NCBI GenBank assembly: GCA_951406725.2
Contig: OX597820.1
Span: 77,810,001-77,874,000, forward strand
DNA from: Octopus vulgaris
Taxonomy: Eukaryota
Direction of reading: 5' to 3'
Length of the DNA stretch: 64,000 nucleotides
Shown here: in pieces, positions 9,131 to 64,000 of the stretch
How positions within the stretch are numbered: the first letter of the stretch is position 1
Layout: every line of letters begins with the position of its first letter
Notes under the pieces: generated by a model
Seen by the model: only the letters and a program-made list of their open reading frames with translations
Told to the model about the DNA's origin: nothing
The model's database searches: none
Program-made: the position numbers and the translations under genes

Positions 9131-11906
9131 TTTTTTTTGTTCTTTCAAATTTGCTTCCATTTCTTGCCAAGTGTCTTCCCGACTCCTAGGGCAAAGAAAC
9201 TCATAGTATACATTGGTAGGCCATTAAACCAAACTCAATAGTTCGTTCTTTCTTTTTTTTTTAAGTTAAATTAAAATACATGAGCAGCAACAGTTCCCAC
9301 ATCGACAATGCTCTTCTCAATACGTGTGATGTACCAGTTAAGACAATCTTTTGCACTTCTTGCAGGGATGGTAAACCAGGGATCATTCTCATATAATTTT
9401 CGGTTCCCTTCTTGATCATTCCTAGTGCTCCTACGATCACTGGTATTGTAACCGCCTTGAGATGCCACATTTTCTCAATTTCAATGAGTAGGTCTTTATA
9501 TTTTCTGAGCTTGTCAAACTCTTTCCCTGAGATATTATGATCACAGGGGATGCTCATGTCGATCAATAAGCAAACTTTATTGTTTTGGTCTTTCACAACA
9601 ATATCAGGTTTATTGGCCTTGATGGTTCGGTCTGTATGTACTGGAAAGTCCCACAGAATGGTTACATTTTCTCCTTCAGTTACAGCCTCAGGGTGGTGAT
9701 TATACCACTTGTCGGCAGTTTTGATATTGTAATGCCGACTTATTAGCCAGTGGAGATATTGGCCAACTCTGTCATGTCTTAATTTATACTCCACTGGTGC
9801 TAAGACTTTACATCCAGAGATTAGGTGGTCCACTGTTTTAATCATGTCGTTGCAGAATCGGCATTTTGGGTCTGCTCCATTTTTCATCACATTGGCCTGG
9901 TAGTTCCGGGTTAATAGGCTTTGATCTTGAGCAGCCAGGATGAAACCTTCGCTCTCTGCTTTTAGCCCTGAGCTCCGTAGCCACTGATGGGTTTGCTTCT
10001 GGTCAACATCAGCTTGTTTGCTGCGGGTCACATATTTGCCGTGCAGAGGTTTCTCCTCCCACCTATCAGCCAATTGCTCGTGCGCTTTTTTCGTTGCCAT
10101 CATTTTCACCTTCTTTGCAACAATAGTTGCCGTACTTCCCTCGGGTTGTTCTGTTTGGGTATCCTGCACGAGATCAATAGCAAATTTTTTGCTTTCATTT
10201 ATAATAGAATGAAGCTTCTTTCGTCTCTCGTAATTTTCCACGAGCTTTAGCATCCTGTCATTCGATATTTCGAGATATTTGGCCAGTCCAATTGTGGTTG
10301 TTTTGTAAGCTAGTTCAAATTGGATCAGGCCTCGACCTCCTTGGGCTCTGGGAAGGTAAAGGCGATCTACGTCTGCCTTTGGGTGGTGCATCCTATTACA
10401 ACTCAGCAGCTTGCGTATTTTCCTATCTATATTCTTTACTTCACTCATATTCCAGTTCAACACATTGTAGCTATAAGTAACAACTGGAACTGCTAAGGAA
10501 TTTATAGCTAACACCTTGTTACGTGCATTTAGTTCATATTTCAGGACTGCACGAACTCTCCTATAACATTCCTTTCTGATCTTCTCTTTCATGCTTGCAT
10601 GCTGAATACCAGAGCCTTCATTTATCCCTAAATATTTGTATGTTTGTTCTTGCTCAAGCTCTCTTATGACTGTGTCGACATCTAACACGACTGAATTTGT
10701 GGTCTTCACTTTCCCTTTCTGGAAAGTGGCCTTGGCACACTTCTCAAGTCCAAACTCCATCTCGATGTCATCGCTGAATGCTTTCACGGTGCGCAATAGG
10801 CCTTCAAGTTCATTATTGTCTTTACCATAAAGTTTTAAGTCATCCATATAAAATAGATGGCTTATTTTTTTATTGGCAATTTTATACCCATACCCTGTTC
10901 TGTTTAATTCACTTGTAAGGGGTATTAGGGCTATGCAGAATATTAAAGGTGAAAGTGAGTCACCTTGAAACATTCCACAGTTGATGTTTATATTTTCTGA
11001 GGTAAGTACTCCATTAGAGTGGTATAATTGGAGATTCGTATTCCACAACGACATATTGTGCTTCAGGAAGTTTGAAATCACAGGGGAAATTTTGAAGATG
11101 TCCAGCGATCTCAAGTTCCATGGATGCGGTATACTGTCGAAGGCCTTTTTATAGTCAATCCATGCGGTGCTGAGATTTCTGCGCTTGTTGTGACAGTTCT
11201 CAAGGATCATACGATTGATTAGCAGTTGATCTTTGCATCCGTAAGAGCCTCGGCGGTACCCTTTTTGTTCAATGGGGAAAATATCGTTCTTCTCCAGGAA
11301 TGCATATGTTTTCTCCGCCAGGATAGTTGTTAGGACTTTATACGTGGTGGATAGACAGGTTATAGGCCGATAGTTTTTTGGAAGGTTGGTTTCGTTATTC
11401 TTTGGGAGTAGGTAAGTAATGCCACTTGCTAACCATTCAGGTGTTTTCTTTGGGTCTCTCATAATTCCATTGAGCAGCTGAACTAGCTTACCGTTTGCGC
11501 ATGGGAGCGATGCGAGCCAGAAATTCGGCACCCTATCTTTACCGGGGGATTTCCAATTATGGGCCTTCGTGAGTGCCTTTCTTAGGTCTGCTATTGTGAT
11601 GTCTTCCCATGCTTGTTGTTGTAAATTTTGGTAGGATCCTTCAGTTTGTATAATCCAGTCTGCATTTATGTTGTACGTCTTCTTGTCACTCCAAATCCTT
11701 TTCCAAAAGTTTTGAACTTCTTCCATGGGAGGGGGGTCTTTAACGGTTACTTTCTCCTTCCCTATTTCTCTGTAGAATTTTTTGGCATTAGATGTGAACA
11801 GCTTATTTTGCTTGTAAAACTTGTTTCTCTTCTCAAATCTTCGTATTCTTTGGGCTTTTGCTTGGACTTTTTGTTTCAGCGTTTCTTTTATTGATATCAG
11901 TTCTTC
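9130..11906 (-). mobile_element. R4/Dong-like non-LTR retrotransposon, 5'-truncated, young, flanked by (TAA)n
   Basis: Open RT-REL frame followed by a ~130-nt 3' UTR ending in an A-run and (AAT)n. The 5' junction abuts (AAT)n at 11907-11955. Confidence 0.92.
9261..11906 (-). CDS. Reverse transcriptase - CCHC zinc knuckle - restriction-like endonuclease polyprotein (R4/Dong clade), N-terminally truncated
   Basis: No stops over ~880 codons. Motifs: NWKSPGKD, NYRPITCL, EQKGY..GCKDQL, WIDYKKAFDS, QGDSLSP, YMDD, FGLEKC, YKYLG, RLYLPR..GGRGL, CRFC..DHLISGC, RHD, KPDIV..IDMSIP..K..KY. The ORF track's extension to 12020 is microsatellite plus the neighbour's UTR. Confidence 0.9.
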   Translation of the reverse strand, partial: EELISIKETLKQKVQAKAQRIRRFEKRNKFYKQNKLFTSNAKKFYREIGKEKVTVKDPPPMEEVQNFWKRIWSDKKTYNINADWIIQTEGSYQNLQQQAWEDITIADLRKALTKAHNWKSPGKDRVPNFWLASLPCANGKLVQLLNGIMRDPKKTPEWLASGITYLLPKNNETNLPKNYRPITCLSTTYKVLTTILAEKTYAFLEKNDIFPIEQKGYRRGSYGCKDQLLINRMILENCHNKRRNLSTAWIDYKKAFDSIPHPWNLRSLDIFKISPVISNFLKHNMSLWNTNLQLYHSNGVLTSENININCGMFQGDSLSPLIFCIALIPLTSELNRTGYGYKIANKKISHLFYMDDLKLYGKDNNELEGLLRTVKAFSDDIEMEFGLEKCAKATFQKGKVKTTNSVVLDVDTVIRELEQEQTYKYLGINEGSGIQHASMKEKIRKECYRRVRAVLKYELNARNKVLAINSLAVPVVTYSYNVLNWNMSEVKNIDRKIRKLLSCNRMHHPKADVDRLYLPRAQGGRGLIQFELAYKTTTIGLAKYLEISNDRMLKLVENYERRKKLHSIINESKKFAIDLVQDTQTEQPEGSTATIVAKKVKMMATKKAHEQLADRWEEKPLHGKYVTRSKQADVDQKQTHQWLRSSGLKAESEGFILAAQDQSLLTRNYQANVMKNGADPKCRFCNDMIKTVDHLISGCKVLAPVEYKLRHDRVGQYLHWLISRHYNIKTADKWYNHHPEAVTEGENVTILWDFPVHTDRTIKANKPDIVVKDQNNKVCLLIDMSIPCDHNISGKEFDKLRKYKDLLIEIEKMWHLKAVTIPVIVGALGMIKKGTENYMRMIPGLPSLQEVQKIVLTGTSHVLRRALSMWELLLLMYFNLT

Positions 11907-11948
<42 letters not shown>

Positions 11949-11955
11949 GATTATT

Positions 11956-13249
11956 GTATGAAAACTCACAGCGTGTTTTGCTGGGTATGATGGAAAGTGT
12001 CGGCTGAAAACAAACAGCAAACTTAGGTGACACTTGTTTACTGGTCATGCTTCAAAAACTCTGCGAAGAATTGTTGCAGTTCTAAGCAATGCTGGTTTTT
12101 GTAGGGGTTCTACCTTCACACTTGCACCGATTTTTTTCAGCCATGTTGGTACCTAAGTACTGATACTTCCAAGTGCACCATTTACTATTGGTATCACGTC
12201 TACTCTCGTCATTGACCACAACCTTCGTATTTCCCACTTTAAAACGTTGTAGTTGTTTATTTTTTTCTTCCTCTTTCACATTGATCCTGTTGTCACCGGG
12301 CTATGCTATGTAGATTATCATACATATTCTTTCTTTTTTATTCACCACAACAATGTCCAGTTTGCTATGTCTGGTCAGGTGATCGCACTGGACCATTACA
12401 TCCCACAGGATTTTGAAGTTCTCATTTTCTGTGGTTTGTTCATACCACGTCTTTGCTCTTTGTAGACTGTGATTTTCACATAGCTCCTGAAGGTTCATTC
12501 TTGCCACATTATCATGGCGTCTTTTGTATTCGCGTTATGCCAATTTAAGGCATTCCCTAACGATGTGTCATACCATTTCAACCCTCTCATCACACACTCT
12601 GCATTTGTCGCTATCGGTAGTGTTGTCAATTTTGCACCTTATATAATGTGTCCTTAACGGTGGTTCCTGAGCTGCGCATATCAGTGTTTCTGTCTCTATC
12701 TTCAGGTCACTCCTCCTCATTCATAGCCAACGGTCCTCTGTATCTGTCTTGGCATTCACATCTCTTGCAAACTGTCCGTTCATTTATCCCTTCCATACTT
12801 TTTCTTCTTTTATTTTGTTCTTTTTTTCTTATTTATATTTTTCTTTAGTTACAAAATGTTCAGTTTTCATGACGCCGGCTTTCTTCGTTTGTCAACAGTG
12901 GCTCCACAGCATTTTTTATATACCACCCTACTCTGTTTTCCTCTACTTCGATACAACCCTGGCAAGTTATCAAACGGCTCCATCCTTTCTTCTGGACAAA
13001 TACAGCCTATCGGTGTTACTCTTGGGCTGGAAGGCTCCATGTACAGTCAACATTTTTCTGGCCTACGTATCCATTTTCTTCATGCCTCTCGTTTGCCATT
13101 TTATAACTCCCGCTACATACCGTAGTGATTCTATCGCCCACCTATCAACTGATTCGATTTTATTCCATCCAGTCAATTTTGAGCGCAGCACCAACCTCAG
13201 TCTTCAAAAGTATTCCGCACTCAGTTGTTGTTTCAAAATCGTTTTTCAT
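11956..13249 (-). mobile_element. R4/Dong-like element, different family, degenerate 3' half
   Basis: Fragments FKILWDVMVQCDH..KLDIVVV and C-terminus ALLRTATILRRVFEA*, then a 3' UTR and (AAT)n. Confidence 0.85.
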
Positions 13250-21596: not shown

Positions 21597-21635
21597 TCCT
21601 CTGTCTTCCCTTCTCTGGATCTTTCCTTCTCCTAT

Positions 21636-21670
21636 GTTTCTGACGAAGAGCTCCTCTCGAAACTTTGAAC
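21636..21670 (+). ncRNA. Minimal type I hammerhead ribozyme-like motif (slightly degenerate)
   Basis: GTTT-CTGACGA-A-GAG(CTCCT)CTC-GAAA-CTTT-GAAC. Core boxes, stem II and stem I (GTTT/GAAC) are present. The stem III palindrome reads ACTTT instead of ACGTT. Confidence 0.5.
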
Positions 21671-22240
21671 CCTCCTTCTTTCCTGAGCATCCAATATTAC
21701 TATATTTGTTCCACGTCCTCGCGTTGTTATGTTTTTTTTTGTGCTTTCATATTTGGATTAACTATATGGATGCATTTACCGAATTATTTTCTAATGCTCC
21801 CCCAAATTACGAACAGCCTATGCTTCAGCTGCGCTGCGCATATCCACTCGCATGTGCAGCGGAAAACATGAAAGAATAATATTACCGAATGATATTGTTT
21901 TCCTTTCATCATGCATTTGATCCAGCTTCACAATGTTATATCCCAACCTGTTTATACTTTTGCTCCTTTAACCCTCGCGGTAAATCTAACAGCGGTTTAT
22001 TAAAGTTTTCTATCTTCCTCACCTGAACGTCTCTGTATGTGTCTTTGTGTAGATCTGCGTGTGTGTGTATGTACATGTATGCTTGTGTCTGTTACATTAT
22101 TTTGTATATGTAATGTGTGCATAATGGTGTTATGTACACGTACGTTTGAACTCAGTTGTTTCACTTTGTCCTCTTATTTACGTCTGCATGGTTACAAATG
22201 AACAGTTATACCCTCGCACACACACACACACACACACGGA

Positions 22241-48695: not shown

Positions 48696-49181
48696 CAATA
48701 AAAAGAAAAGAAAAGAAAAAAACTATTATGGCTATTGGCTTTTCTATAAATTGGCCAGATACTTTGTATTTTATTCTATTCCAGTATGTCGAATTATTGA
48801 AAGAGAGAGATTTAGATGTCAAAGAGTCAAAGAGCATCGTCTATCCTATGTGAAACTGATGAAATTCTTCAACGGCTTCGGTGAAAAATCGAAAACGTTG
48901 GATTGGAAACATGTAACAGCCAGGGGTAATGAAACATGGTCCAAGAAGTTTTGTCTAATATCTATTCTATTTAGGTCTGTGCTGTAAATCTTTTATTTAT
49001 ATATAAGAGCATTTTCTCCTCACTAATTATTCACTTCCTCCTTCTCTACCTCCTGTGCCTCCCCTTCCTCTTCCTCTGTATCATTTTCATCATCTTTATC
49101 GGTAGCACGTTATTATCATTGTTATTACGGTCGTCGCACCTATCGTTACTATTATCATCATTTTATCACCATTATTCTGAT

Positions 49182-54936: not shown

Positions 54937-55087
54937 ACATTATTTACATTGGATGGATATGTTTCCTCATCTTGTTTTTTGTTACCACAACGTTTCGGCT
55001 GGTTTCCTCTCCAGCCTTCATCAGGTGACCTGGCAGATTTTTAAACCTTACCCTAGGTTTATTCCTAAGGTATTTTTTTGCAGATGC
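54937..55087 (-). mobile_element. Short hammerhead-containing repeat (Penelope pseudo-LTR/retrozyme-like), copy 1
   Basis: Reverse complement aligns with 57196-57345 (AAAATACCTTAGGAAT..CCTGATGAAGGCTGGAG..CCGAAA.GTTGTG.TAACAA..ATGAG..ATATCC..TAAATAATGT). Confidence 0.7.
54984..55029 (-). ncRNA. Minimal type I hammerhead ribozyme motif (intact core)
   Basis: GTCAC-CTGATGA-A-GGCTGG(AGAGGAAA)CCAGCC-GAAA-CG-TT-GTGGT. It has a 6-bp stem II, a 5-bp stem I and a palindromic AACGTT stem III. Confidence 0.7.
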
Positions 55088-55162
<75 letters not shown>

Positions 55163-55198
55163 TTGAATAAATAATAATAACAATAATAACAATAATAT

Positions 55199-55233
<35 letters not shown>

Positions 55234-55242
55234 GAATAATAA

Positions 55243-55305
<63 letters not shown>
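55088..55305. repeat. (TAT)n then (AAT)n, head-to-head triplet arrays
   Basis: Directly visible. Confidence 0.95.
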
Positions 55306-55306
<1 letters not shown>

Positions 55307-57148
55307 CTCTTTTGTTTAGCCTTAATACCTCTCTCAAAACAGCTGAATAACGCGCAGTACGGGTATAAAATGTTTGATAAAAATATAAATCATCTCATTT
55401 ACATGGATGATTTAAAGCTTTTTGCAAAAAATGACCAACAACTCAAGGGCTTACTATCGATAGTCAAACAATTCAGTGACGACATCAGAATGCAATTCGG
55501 CCTCGATAAATGTGCAAAAGCTACCTTTATCAAAGGAAAAATGACAGAAATATCTAACGTTAACCTTCACCAGCAGAATGTCATAAAAGAACTAAACCCA
55601 GCGGAGAGCTACAAGTACCTAGGGGTAATTGAAGGGAACGGAATAAGGCATTCAGAGATGAAGGAAAGGATCAGGAGAGAATGTTATCGAAGAGTGAGAG
55701 CAATACTCAAGACAGAGCTGAATGCAAGAAACAGGATCGAAGCGATCAATGCATTAGCCATACCAGTCGTGACTTACAGTTTCAATATCGTTAACTGGTC
55801 AATTACTGAAATATGTCAGCTCGACAGAAAAATAAGAAAACTGTTGACAATGCATAGAATGCACTACCCTAAGGCAGATACAGAACGACTTTATCTGCCA
55901 GGAAAAGAGAGAGGCTGTGGTCTTTTGCAACTGGCAATAACAATGAAGATTGCTACAATTGCCCTAGACACCTACCCGAAAAAGTCTGAGGACTGGATGT
56001 TAAAACTTGTCTCAAAACATGAAAACAAGAAAGCATCATACTCAGTAACAAAACAGGCAAAGGAATATCTAAGTGAATTCTGAATACAACAAATTTCGGA
56101 ATTAGAGATAGACATACAAGAAACAAGCACAGAAAAAGCTAGGCGCATGAAAACCCGTGCCAAAACTGCGGCCTTAGATATTCTGAATAATAAATGGCAA
56201 GAAAAACCTTTCTATGGCAAATACCCAAAGAGAGCGAATAATGCAGATATTGACAAAGCCCTTACCCATAAATGGCTAATGGCCTCTGGCTTAAAATCTA
56301 AAACAGAAGGGTTTATCATAGCAGCTGAAGATCAATGCCTACCAACAAGAAACTACTAGGCCAACATATTAAAGAACGGCAGTAGCCCAACATGTCGTGT
56401 ATGCCGACAACAAAATGAAACCATTGATCATGTTGTCTCCAAATGCAGTCTTCTAGCGCCTACAGAGTACCTCAACAGGCATGATAGAGCTGCACAATAT
56501 ATTCACTGGGTAATTTGCAAAAACCTAGATTTGCCCCATGAAAAAAACTGGTGGCAACACAATCCTCCTCCAGTGCTTGAAAATGACCACATCTCACTCC
56601 TCTGGAACTTCACCATTCAAACTGACAGAAAGATAGATGCAAATAGGCCAGACATCATATTGAAAGACTTCAGACAAAGAACATGCCTCCTCATTGATAT
56701 GACTGTATATAAACGTATCTGTCAAGACCTACTAAAAACTGAGCAAATATAAAGATCTTGAAATAGAAATCAGCAAAATGTGGAACCTGAAGACTAAAAC
56801 AATACTTGTTGTCATAGGTGCCCTGGGAATGATAGCGAAAGGGGCTGATTGCTACCTAACTCAGATACCTGGAGACCCCAAAATGGCAGAAATTCAAAAG
56901 ATAGTGCTCATGGGAACTGCTCATATCTTACGCAAAATACTCTCTATGTAATCCCAAGGTTTAAAATAAACTTTTTTTTTTAAATTTATGTATTAGACAT
57001 TCACTAGTACAACACCAAGAAACAATCCCAAATATATGGCACACTAGGCATAACAACAACGTGAACTTCCAACCTGTTGTCTCTTGAGGTCTCTGGGTGA
57101 GACTTGGAGCCAACTTGTGCAGACATAAAGCAAAAGTCAAACATAGAA
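55306..57148 (+). mobile_element. R4/Dong-like family B, 5'-truncated within RT, pseudogenised
   Basis: HLIYMDDLKLFAK, FGLDKC, YKYLG, CCHC and REL motifs, ILRKILSM*. Several in-frame stops and a small deletion. (AAT)n on both sides. Confidence 0.93.
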
Positions 57149-57195
57149 ACTAATAATAATAATAATAATAATGATATCAACAACAACAACAATAC

Positions 57196-57378
57196 AATCG
57201 AAAATACCTTAGGAATGAGAACCCAGGTTCGAAATTTCCCCAAGATACCTGATGAAGGCTGGAGGGTATATCAACCGAAATGTTGTGTTAACAACAAACA
57301 ACATGAGAACAAATATCCGTCAATCATAAATAATGTAAATAATGTACATAATTCCTCATCTCTTAAATATAGAACTGT
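57196..57378 (+). mobile_element. Short hammerhead-containing repeat, copy 2
   Basis: Homologous to 54937-55087 in the opposite orientation, and starts immediately after (AAT)n/(AAC)n. Confidence 0.7.
57244..57289 (+). ncRNA. Minimal type I hammerhead ribozyme motif (mutated)
   Basis: GATAC-CTGATGA-A-GGCTGG(AGGGTATA)TCAACC-GAAA-TG-TT-GTGTT. One stem II mismatch and a CG>TG change in stem III. Confidence 0.6.
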
Positions 57379-59232: not shown

Positions 59233-59530
59233 AAACGGTTAATTTATGTCTTCTATTATGTGGTCATTTTAGTGTCAACACAGGTATCTCAGATCAAAAC
59301 ACTTGCCATACAAGTACAAACATCTGCTAATCTACTAATCCATTATCTTGGATACTTACGTCGTAATCAACCTAAAAAAAACTTCACTTCGAAATGGTGC
59401 ATGAAAGAACGTGGCATGAGGCAATTTTAAAGTGCCTTGACGTCTCGGCCTGTGCATTTAATAAACAAATCCCTTGGCTTCCCTAGATAGAGACGTCAAT
59501 TCATATATCCTACACAAAATGTCAGATGTA

Positions 59531-60817
59531 CGAGGGGCGTTCAATAAGTAATGCCCCTGACCCCCTTCCCATAGCAGTAGAGCAACGGAATTTGGCACAG
59601 TTATTAGTCTTTTTCTACATAGAAACCACCTAGAGTTACGCATTTCTCCCATCGTTTGATGCAGCTGTGGAGACCGTTTTTGTAGAAGACCCCAGCTTGG
59701 TCCTCCAACCACGACGTGACTTCAAAAATCAAGGCTGCATCATCTGGGAAACGCTTTCCTTTCAAAAACAACTTCATGGCTTGGAAGAGGTGAAAATCAG
59801 AGGGTGCAAGGTCAGGAGAGTAGGTGGGGGAGTTCATAGCCGCACGCCTGTGCTTCTGATATGGCGACACGCGAGTTGTGGACCGGAGCGTTGTCCTGCA
59901 GGAGGAGGATGCCTTTGCTGATCTTGCCCCGCCTCTTGATTTTGATAGCTTCTCTTAATTTCCTCAAAAGTGAAGCATAATAGGATCCTGTAATTTTGGT
60001 ACCCTTTGCCAGGAAATCTGTCATCACTACTCCGTATTGGTCCCAGAAGACTGTGAGCATGACCTTGCCAGCGGAGGGCTGCACCCTTGCCTTCTTTGGA
60101 GGAGTTGAGTCACGGTGCTTCCACTGCATTAGCTGGGCTTTGGTCTCTAGATCATAATGATGGACCCAGGTTTCATCCTGTGTAATCAGTCTTTTGAAAA
60201 TTTTTGACTCATCTTCTTGGCACATCTCCAAATTTATCCTCGAGCACTCGATGCGTTCTTGCTTCTGGAAAGGTGTGAGCAACCTGGGAATCCATCTGGC
60301 AGACACCTTTTGCATATGCAAATGGTCATGAATGATAGTTTCCACAGACCCGATACTAATCTTGACCTCGTGGGCTATTTGGCGAATAGCTATGCGTCAA
60401 TCTTCCAAAATGGCAGCCTCAGCTTGACGGACACATGCCACATCAATGGCAGAAGGTGGGGGCGACCAGATCTGGGAGCTGTTTCCACAGAGTTCCGACC
60501 ATGTTTGAATTCACAATGCCAGTGTTTTACAAGGTCATATGATGGGGCATCATCACCATAAGTTATTTTCATTTCATCAAACGTCTCCCGTGGTGTGCGT
60601 CCTTTCAAATACAAAAACCTGATCACTGCTCGAAACTCAACAGGCTCCATTTCACACTTGACTCAGTTCAAACCCCTGTAAATCAGAAACCACAATTAGT
60701 TCAGAGCTGTAATTTGCCACTTAATCTATAGAGTGATAAATAATTGCACCTGCAAAATTTCAGCTAGATCAAACAACTGCGAGTGGGTCAGGGGCATTAC
60801 CTATTGAACGCCCCTCG
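59531..60817 (-). mobile_element. Full-length mariner (DD34D), 1287 bp, same family as 37281-38571, TA TSD
   Basis: TA|CGAGGGGCGTTCAATAAGTAATGCCCCTGACCC ... GGGTCAGGGGCATTACCTATTGAACGCCCCTCG|TA. Confidence 0.95.
59604..60650 (-). pseudogene. Mariner transposase with two frameshifts
   Basis: ORF pieces 60390-60650, 59812-60345 and 59604-59870, with WIPRLL, QDETW, QDNA and YSPDLAPSDFHLF. Confidence 0.92.
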
Positions 60818-61141
60818 TAATATCGTTTGTCTTCTACGTCTTGCACTTAGAAAGTTAATATAGTCATACAATGCAATTTAATATAAGAGGCAACACAGAA
60901 TCACTACGAAATTCGTCACGGTTGAGTTATAATTCTTTTGGACGTCGATTTTTATATGATGAATTGTAATATGTTGTTTACAATTTCCAATATTCAAAAG
61001 TATATTCTTGGAAAGAATATGGTGTGATTTTGTAATGCCTGCGTGTTAAAAGAAAATGGTAATAGACCGAACGAAATTCGCATTAAGTTATGATTTTAAA
61101 TGCCATGTTTAACTACTTTATTCTTAACATATGCCGCTATA

Positions 61142-63049: not shown

Positions 63050-64000
63050 CATCGAGGACACCAATACTTCATCAGCAACGAGATCCCTAGTCACAGACTT
63101 GAGTGGGTCCCTCTCCCATGAAGAACTAGAACTTCTCAGTCTGGCCCCTAAATTTATAGTGAGCCAACAGCCGAATGAAAAAAATCTTATTCTACTTGGA
63201 AGCCAACTTTTGTCGAACAGCCTACCAACTCAAATGGCAAACAGTGATAAAGAAGAAAAGCAACACACTCGGCAAATTCTCCATGTACCAACTAGACCAC
63301 CCACTCCACCCACCTCCAACCAACAAAGAACTCAACCACAAACTATCCAGATTGAACCAGTCTATCTCCAACAACTTAAGGAAGGAATCGAAAACAACTC
63401 CAAACTTAACCAAGGAGCAACATAAAATACTGACTAAACTACAACAAAAAAATCTTGTATAATTACCATCAGATAAAGGAAAAGAAATCGGCGTGATTTC
63501 TTGTGAAATATATGATAGGCTGGCACAAGAACATTTAAGCAATGACAGGTTATATTCTGAAGTGACAGATATAACTGCGACCAGGATTGAGGACCGAATT
63601 AATACCGCATGGGCGGACATCTGTAGACGGTGACAAATATATGATCAATTCAAGAACAGTAGATTACCCAGATTTTATCACCTCATTAAAACACCCAAGA
63701 ATTTCAACACGATCCAGGTTAGACCCATCGTCTTCAGTGTGGAAGGACCTCTATATAAAATATCTGGTTACTTTCTCACATCCTGAAACCCATACTCACC
63801 ACCTTTCAAGGACACGTCAAGAACTCTGACTAAGTCATCAAAACACTGCACCAATTATCCCTAGACCAGCTCAAGCAAAACCGATATGCCTTTAGCCTTG
63901 ACGTTGTCTCAATTTACACAACGGTGCCAGCACACTCGGCGGTCAACCTATTGACTGATTGTATAATAGCGTCCAATATTCAATGCTTCGGACTTACCGC
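63050..64000 (+). mobile_element. Penelope-like retroelement, N-terminus and start of RT, frameshifted; continues beyond the window
   Basis: LSHEELELLSLAPKF, NLTKEQHKILTKL, ILPSDKGK..YDRLAQEHL, PRFYHLIKTPK, RPIVFSVEGP and FSLDVVSIYTTVP follow the characteristic PLE motif order (DKG, RPIV, SLDV.SLYT). Confidence 0.85.

What the first reader, a model, noticed from the sequence alone, without database searches (positions are those of the whole stretch)
54937..57378. Pair of outward-facing minimal hammerhead-ribozyme repeats bracketing a (TAA)n array and a Dong-like LINE
Seen: two diverged copies of a 150-180-bp non-coding repeat in opposite orientation, each starting at the edge of a triplet array. 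Each carries CUGAUGA-A-[stem II]-GAAA-(C/U)G-UU with a 5-bp stem I. Core and stem II are conserved while loop II differs, and one stem I pair changes from U.G to A-U. Established: Penelope-like elements carry minimal type I hammerheads with short palindromic stem III that are thought to cleave as dimers, and an extra A between A9 and G10.1 occurs in the chrysanthemum chlorotic mottle viroid hammerhead. Inference: this is a microsatellite-anchored, non-autonomous ribozyme element (pseudo-LTR or retrozyme-like) arranged as an inverted pair, whose central (TAA)n was later targeted by an R4/Dong element. That would be a layered ribozyme/microsatellite/LINE system.
Basis: partly seen in the sequence, partly recalled or inferred. 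Interest (0 to 1): 0.72.

Follow-up and report, generated by a model that had tools for sequence, protein, structure and literature searches.

The report
Penelope ends with tRNA-type promoter, hybrid

Summary
The two opposite-strand minimal hammerhead motifs, the triplet arrays and the LINE are there. They are not a microsatellite-anchored non-autonomous element. Each repeat is the end repeat (pLTR) and first ~55 codons of a decayed Poseidon-type Penelope-like element (8,900 exact core matches in the genome). Its unit is ORF end, tRNA-derived head, (TAA)n, hammerhead, tail, so the (TAA)n belongs to the element. Outward-facing pairs with a tail on one arm (43 of 47) and target-site duplications are the family's normal, known insertion form. 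This pair is an exception: arms from subfamilies B and A, no duplication, so probably a hybrid of two insertions plus a younger (TAA)n-targeting LINE. The cited stem I change is not covariation, and copy 2 is damaged. The novel part is family-level: 25 of 62 heads begin at the tRNA start, promoter boxes are kept, and the 2.7-kb sense strand has no T4 run in either subfamily, which points to Pol III transcription of a coding retroelement (untested). This scan has reported that family reading before on other DNA (9 notes).

The parts
54937..55087 (-). Copy 1: tail-less pLTR arm of PLE subfamily B (decayed ORF start with hammerhead)
   Evidence: 135/151 to B majority vs 115/143 to A; ends at the tail-less boundary
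54984..55029 (-). Minimal type I hammerhead motif of copy 1: 5 stem I pairs, 6 stem II pairs, palindromic AACGUU, predicted cut 54989/54988
   Evidence: cleavage not tested
55088..55161 (-). Inverted copy of the element's internal (TAA)n array
   Evidence: same place in B-type palindromes
55162..55175 (+). Remnant of the 3' end of a B-type tRNA-like head (centre of the palindrome collapsed)
   Evidence: matches the B head end seen (e.g. L049); only about 14 nt, partly simple repeat, so assignment is by context
55170..55306 (+). Internal (TAA)n array of the B element's right half; LINE target
55307..57146 (+). 5'-truncated dead LINE with C-terminal restriction-like endonuclease motifs, (TAA)n-targeting (Dong/R4-like)
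   Evidence: RVT_1 and zf-RVT hits; stops and frameshift; 56% identical to the window's longer LINE ORF, whose only PDB relatives are R2 proteins; 1.8% from family majority
57152..57196 (+). (AAT)n/(AAC)n leader typical of subfamily A arms
57197..57378 (+). Copy 2: pLTR arm of PLE subfamily A with tail; candidate ORF start ATG at 57215
   Evidence: 168/183 to A majority vs 151/184 to B; open frame that continues into the PLE ORF in other copies
57244..57289 (+). Damaged minimal hammerhead motif of copy 2 (C.A mismatch in stem II, AAUGUU)
57346..57378 (+). PLE tail of about 33 nt, present on one arm only
   Evidence: bimodal 3' ends

Best explanation
Both repeats are decayed end pieces (pLTR plus ORF start, with the hammerhead inside the first codons) of an abundant protein-coding Penelope/Poseidon-type retroelement, one from subfamily B and one from subfamily A, likely left side by side when DNA between two separate insertions was lost at their (TAA)n arrays, with a younger (TAA)n-targeting LINE between them. 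Shown: the unit ORF end, tRNA-derived head, (TAA)n, hammerhead, tail, ORF; head-to-head insertions with one tail and a target-site duplication. Inferred mechanism: RNA starts at the tRNA-derived head, likely by RNA polymerase III; the element's protein cuts both target strands and primes reverse transcription at two internal sites about 35 nt apart (as measured for the anole element PAc), giving two cDNAs that are joined head to head; priming in the 5' pLTR gives the many short copies that begin at the head. The hammerhead would cut only as a dimer or with protein help and has no role at this dead locus.
For: Linkage to ORF end: 28 of 30 ORF-end loci run on into the head and (AAT)n; an arm follows in 22 of the 26 rows shown (4 rows cut). 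Linkage to ORF start: tail runs in frame into the ORF in 22 of 30 loci (the query held the last tail codons, which favours this). RT domain by Pfam; majority frame open for 799 aa; intact 806-aa relative in a public assembly. Insertion form: 47 divergent, 2 convergent, 2 tandem pairs in 85 loci; tail on exactly one arm in 43 of 47 (p=1e-9); duplication >=10 nt in 44 of 83 one-tail pairs vs 2% of 600 shuffled pairs. Hybrid: window pair is B+A while 44 of 47 unbiased pairs are A+A, 1 B+B, 2 undetermined; no duplication here. LINE: (TAA)n after the 3' end in 25 of 29 copies and before the 5' junction in 22 of 24; 3 of 29 sit directly before a hammerhead arm. Pol III: head colinear with genome tRNA-Arg (z=7.4, 0 of 500 shuffles), boxes at tRNA positions 8-18 and 53-61; 25 of 62 heads begin at -10..+4; three A/B differences fall on degenerate box positions; 0 T>=4 runs in 2,702 nt of A majority and in 2,550 positions of B majority with 111 differences vs 30 in 10,947 nt of 7 control ORFs (Poisson P=0.0014).
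Against: 28 of 83 ordinary pairs also show no duplication (<7 nt), so its absence here is weak. Two short or deleted arms in the B-selected set were scored A+B by the script; I read them as misassigned, one by eye. No reciprocal partner or lost inner half was found, so the deletion is not shown. Copy 2 (5 of 173 changes) and the LINE (31 of 1,709) cannot be ordered on these single copies. The T4 deficit is only P=0.04 against synonymous shuffles, uninformative for T>=5 (P=0.62), one control ORF has 1 run in 1,002 nt, controls are single and partly related copies, and none is a head-less Poseidon family. ARAGORN (0 of 37 loci) and Rfam do not call the head a tRNA. A TATA-like motif lies ~30 nt upstream of the pile of 5' ends and a short palindrome overlaps it, either of which could explain the pile without Pol III. 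Pfam did not detect GIY-YIG in the C-terminal piece; that domain is read from motifs. No place where many RNA molecules begin or end in three unstranded RNA runs.
Confidence: 0.68

Rival explanations
1. Same element, but the tRNA-derived head is a passenger (an old SINE or tRNA capture); RNA polymerase II starts near it, or reverse transcription stalls and folds back at the short palindrome just before it.
For: TATA-like motif ~30 nt upstream and a 10-nt quasi-palindrome at the pile of 5' ends; head too decayed for tRNA finders; PMC10886601 (passages) argues that autonomous partners must use Pol II; PMC5786205 (passages) describes LINEs as Pol II-read.
Against: Boxes kept in both subfamilies; no T4 run over the whole unit in both majorities; most 5' ends at the pile join unrelated or distant sequence rather than a perfect fold-back (only 2 perfect centres matched).
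Confidence: 0.3
2. The window pair is one insertion in which the two target ends were primed on two different RNAs (one A, one B), later split by the LINE.
For: Topology is the normal one: outward-facing, one tail; no remains of lost inner arms in the window or 10 kb either side.
Against: No firm A+B pair among 47 unbiased pairs, 14 of 18 pairs in B-selected loci are B+B although A is far more common; no duplication; copy 1 is 9.4% from its majority, copy 2 2.9%.
Confidence: 0.13
3. One reading: a non-autonomous, microsatellite-anchored retrozyme-like element, one inverted pair, whose ribozyme is under selection.
For: Most copies are short and lack ORF sequence; arms nearly always border a triplet array; the hammerhead region is nearly identical between A and B.
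Against: Direct, in-frame linkage to the PLE ORF at both ends; array is internal; tandem repeats are rare (2 of 51 close pairs), unlike retrozymes; core equals flank in decay. Short copies with their own promoter could still have been re-mobilised in trans; not tested.
Confidence: 0.05

Closest known systems
Penelope/Poseidon PLE PAc of Anolis carolinensis (PMC11167929; parts 1-2 of 4 read)
   Same: Hammerhead at the pLTR-ORF junction overlapping the ORF start; two internal RT start sites defining a 30-40-nt tail; both target strands cut and extended; AT-rich targets.
   Different: No tRNA-derived module, internal (TAA)n or Pol III promoter in the parts read; here the family is decayed and mostly short head-to-head copies.
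Minimal hammerheads of metazoan PLEs (PMC4209133; parts 1-2 of 4 read; PMC8557442, passages)
   Same: Helix I 4-5 bp, long helix II, extra base between 9 and 10.1, palindromic 15.2-16.2, dual motifs 100-700 bp apart on opposite strands, inverted truncated copy with tail at one end.
   Different: Nothing in the motif itself; activity not tested here.
Schistosome SINE-like hammerhead repeats (as reviewed in PMC6765202, passages; primary paper not held)
   Same: Pol III-type promoter followed by a hammerhead.
   Different: Those are non-coding tandem repeats; here promoter module and hammerhead are part of a coding PLE.
TRIMp3: Cassandra, Helenus, Ajax (PMC10886601, passages)
   Same: Small-RNA-derived Pol III promoter inside a terminal repeat.
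   Different: LTR-type and non-autonomous; here the repeat belongs to an RT-endonuclease-coding element.
Animal non-LTR retrozymes (bioRxiv 10.64898/2026.07.22.740005, part 1 of 5 read)
   Same: Type I hammerhead, PLE-derived.
   Different: Defined as tandem non-coding repeats; this family is dispersed, inverted and ORF-linked.
Dong (R4 lineage) of Bombyx mori (PMC3774820, passages); Dong-R4 class in octopus (PMC13282606, part 1 of 3 and passages)
   Same: LINE related to R2 proteins, flanked by (TAA)n.
   Different: Clade placement not tested by a tree; 5' end missing, so its own ribozyme could not be checked.

Membership tests
Penelope-like element, EN+ | Single ORF with RT domain | tested here: met
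   RVT_1 over cut-off in two copies; 799-aa open majority frame
Penelope-like element, EN+ | C-terminal GIY-YIG endonuclease with CCHH motif | tested here: inconclusive
   Motifs present by eye with two Cys and two His; Pfam no hit
Penelope-like element, EN+ | pLTR at both ORF ends from partial tandem structure | tested here: met
Penelope-like element, EN+ | Inverted truncated copy and 30-40-nt tail at one end | tested here: met
   43 of 47 pairs
Penelope/Poseidon clade | No extra Zn-finger in RT-EN linker (PMC8557442) | tested here: met
   Cys positions show no CxxC in the linker
Penelope/Poseidon clade | RT phylogeny with named references | not testable with these tools
   no named PLE reference sequences at hand; homologues unnamed
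Minimal type I hammerhead | Core, extra base, stems I and II, palindromic stem III | tested here: met
   copy 1 and A majority meet it; copy 2 has two breaks
Minimal type I hammerhead | Covariation | tested here: not met
   no compensatory change between A and B majorities; more distant families not available
Minimal type I hammerhead | Self-cleavage | not testable with these tools
   no piled RNA ends in unstranded runs, which is not informative
Non-LTR retrozyme | Tandem non-coding units each with a hammerhead | tested here: not met
   2 tandem of 51 close pairs; ORF-linked
tRNA-derived SINE | tRNA-derived head with A and B boxes | tested here: met
   (family; deleted at this locus); box consensus recalled, not from a call
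tRNA-derived SINE | Non-coding, head absent from the autonomous partner | tested here: not met
   head is part of the coding element's pLTR
tRNA-derived SINE | Pol III transcription | not testable with these tools
   indirect only
Dong/R4 LINE | (TAA)n target preference | tested here: met
   25 of 29 and 22 of 24
Dong/R4 LINE | RT plus C-terminal zinc knuckle and restriction-like endonuclease | tested here: met
   endonuclease motifs read by eye (recalled)
Dong/R4 LINE | RT tree placement in the R4 clade | not tested
   no reference set

The most novel reading that the evidence does not exclude
A protein-coding Penelope retroelement that captured a tRNA promoter and was read end to end (about 2.9 kb) by RNA polymerase III, purged of Pol III terminators in both subfamilies, translated without a cap, and acting as its own SINE because every short copy carries the promoter and the RT start sites.
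Probability: 0.35. Interest if true: 0.82.

Novelty: new variant of a known kind. Interest (0 to 1): 0.5.

Why it matters
The locus itself is a nested pile of dead repeats. The family matters because autonomous retroelements are held to need RNA polymerase II; a coding element with a tRNA-type internal promoter and no T4 runs would blur the LINE/SINE divide and give a testable case of Pol III-made mRNA. Its thousands of copies also give genomic support for the two-start-site, two-strand priming seen in vitro for PAc (one tail per pair, same subfamily on both arms, target duplication).

Tried and rejected
Rfam: no hammerhead or tRNA hit. ARAGORN: 0 genes in 37 loci. PF01541 search found another, young PLE family (781-aa ORF) that does not carry this arm; used only as a control. 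Search of the scan's notes by sequence gave nothing. No RNA holder on record was listed; three raw RNA runs of a coded organism covered the pLTR and ORF end on both mate directions with reads mostly 90-95% alike and no piled ends: not evidence for or against cleavage or a start site. Two metagenome scans for relatives with DNA context found none, so the head and T4 test could not be extended to the 55-69% identical relatives. Patterns for a reciprocal rearrangement partner: 0 matches and 13 vs 11 control, none with an arm. Centre-dinucleotide test of fold-back versus twin priming had only 2 usable loci. No breakpoint seen along the LINE. Two primary papers were not held (PMC5785218, PMC108972), so dimer cleavage data and the schistosome element are cited second-hand. 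No covariance model was built: A and B offer no compensatory changes to train on.

Full report
Observation. Copy 1 can form five stem I and six stem II pairs and keeps the palindromic AACGUU; copy 2 has a C.A mismatch in stem II and AAUGUU. Rfam finds no hammerhead here. The shape matches the minimal PLE hammerhead of Cervera and de la Pena (PMC4209133, parts 1-2 of 4 read), which already lists the extra base between positions 9 and 10.1 and dual motifs 100-700 bp apart on opposite strands. The genome is 2.8 Gb; it is probably an octopus, inferred from an Octopus sinensis protein hit.

The repeat is a high-copy family with two subfamilies. The 18-nt core has 8,900 exact matches, control 0. Copy 2 belongs to subfamily A (168/183 to the A majority, 151/184 to B) and copy 1 to subfamily B (135/151 to B, 115/143 to A). 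Contigs of four runs with four different organism codes cover the whole element.

It is the end of a coding element. One unbiased locus had an endonuclease-like coding fragment just upstream. Searching with it gave 2,626 candidates; 28 of 30 loci run from the ORF end through a ~50-nt spacer into a 76-nt head and (AAT)n, and an arm follows in 22 of the 26 rows displayed (4 rows were cut). At the other end the tail runs in frame into the ORF in 22 of 30 loci found with the N-terminal peptide (the query contained the last tail codons), including two B-type arms. The frame through the hammerhead is open in both majorities and in copy 2. Pfam finds RVT_1; the C-terminus has GIY-YIG-like and CCHH-like motifs by eye and no linker CxxC, which fits Penelope/Poseidon as defined in PMC8557442 (passages), but Pfam gave no endonuclease hit. 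No intact ORF was seen among 150 scored N-terminal matches (longest frame 465 aa); an intact 806-aa relative exists in a public assembly. The (TAA)n array therefore lies inside the pLTR, between head and ORF start.

Insertion form. I fetched the loci of the first 100 listed core sites (90 loci, 5 overlapping ones dropped, all from the first 27 Mb of one contig and selected for an exact core). In 85 loci there are 47 divergent, 2 convergent and 2 tandem close pairs; 3' ends are bimodal, about 35 nt apart; exactly one arm has the tail in 43 of 47 pairs (p=1e-9 against independence); 44 pairs are A+A, 1 B+B, 2 undetermined. A duplication of 10 nt or more flanks 44 of 83 one-tail pairs from all sets, against 2% of 600 shuffled pairs; 28 of 83 have under 7 nt, and 3 of the long ones are simple repeats. 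The tail can be on the longer or the shorter arm, which a simple fold-back cannot give. This fits priming of both target strands at two internal RNA sites, as measured for PAc (PMC11167929, parts 1-2 of 4 read); that step is inferred here.

This locus. It reads: B arm without tail, inverted array, ~14-nt remnant of a B head end, array, LINE, short A-type leader, A arm with tail. It is B+A, has no duplication, and holds no other head, arm or ORF piece of this family within the window or 10 kb either side. The simplest history is two insertions whose inner halves were lost; no reciprocal product was found, so this is not shown. The LINE is 1.8% from its majority, copy 2 2.9%, copy 1 9.4%. It has stops and a frameshift, is 56% identical to the window's longer LINE ORF, whose five PDB matches are R2-type proteins; Dong's TAA target is in PMC3774820 (passages); clade placement was not tested by a tree. 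A transcript across the locus would hold one sense hammerhead only, and the arms would pair with each other (-141 vs -46 +/- 6 kcal/mol for shuffles), so no cis dimer can form.

Ribozyme constraint. Among 52 A arms taken from ORF-selected loci, non-CpG changes are 27/542 in the core and 225/4,379 in the flanks; 12 of the core changes are at the free position 7. Copies decay neutrally. A and B majorities differ in loop II and at one stem I position, where B has A.G; there is no compensatory pair. Conservation between subfamilies cannot be separated from coding constraint. Cleavage is untested; RNA runs showed no piled ends but were unstranded.

The head. Its majority aligns end to end with real tRNAs of this genome (24 distinct sequences; best tRNA-Arg, 52 of 79 columns, z=7.4, 0 of 500 shuffles) with A and B boxes at tRNA positions 8-18 and 53-61 (box consensus recalled). 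ARAGORN and Rfam do not call it. Of 62 heads in the unbiased loci, 25 begin at -10..+4, 15 at +5..+20, 5 later, 5 at -39..-11 and 12 run on upstream. In the B majority (9 heads) three of the differences fall on degenerate purine positions of the boxes and none on an invariant one. The 2,702-nt A majority (134 segments, depth 6 or more) has no run of four T on the sense strand but 30 runs of four A; synonymous shuffles expect 2.7 (P=0.04; the T5 test is uninformative). The B majority (8 copies, 2,550 positions, 111 differences) also has none. Seven other retroelement ORFs in the genome have 30 runs in 10,947 nt, from 1.0 to 4.7 per kb (P=0.0014); they are single, partly related copies. The 0.54 per kb seen in copies matches simulated decay of a T4-free source. 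Together this favours a Pol III-type internal promoter, possibly for the whole element; a TATA-like motif and a short palindrome at the same place keep a Pol II or fold-back explanation open.

Literature and novelty. Six searches returned no listing that describes a tRNA-derived promoter in a PLE; the library lacks most subscription journals and Repbase, where the family may be annotated. Nearest precedents are non-coding: schistosome hammerhead SINEs (review PMC6765202, passages) and TRIMp3 elements (PMC10886601, passages). The octopus repeat paper has no occurrence of 'ribozyme' in its main text (PMC13282606; supplements not read). Cap-independent translation aided by self-cleaving ribozymes is reported for RNA viruses (PMC13725137, abstract only); its relevance here is speculation. 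This scan has nine earlier notes with the same family reading, read after my tests were done; they are not independent evidence.

Verdict. Interest 0.5.

Noticed in passing
window 21635-21680 (+): A second, unrelated hammerhead-core-like motif (CUGACGA-A-stem-GAAAC) in another repeat; may be the pLTR of another PLE family.
   Followed up: no
window 48850-48905 (+): A third CUGAUGA...GAAAACGUU motif with a longer stem II region, unrelated to the family studied.
   Followed up: no
window 9261-12044 (-): Long open frame (927 codons stop to stop) of a related R2-like LINE, bordered by triplet arrays; many more fragments of such LINEs in the window.
   Followed up: partly
window 59529-60819: Element with 38-nt terminal inverted repeats, 1.29 kb long, size and ends suggest a mariner-type DNA transposon (class recalled).
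   Followed up: no
window 63352-63852 and L109 30-455: Fragments of a distant PLE-like RT at the right edge of the window.
   Followed up: no
P0002: A predicted Octopus sinensis membrane protein isoform starts with 37 residues from this pLTR frame: exonisation or an annotation artefact.
   Followed up: no
L091, L092, L093: Young PLE family with many intact 781-aa ORFs and no canonical hammerhead found by my pattern.
   Followed up: partly
L047 and L113: Repeated short fold-backs at the head's first bases within one insertion, suggesting several template jumps at the RNA 5' end.
   Followed up: no
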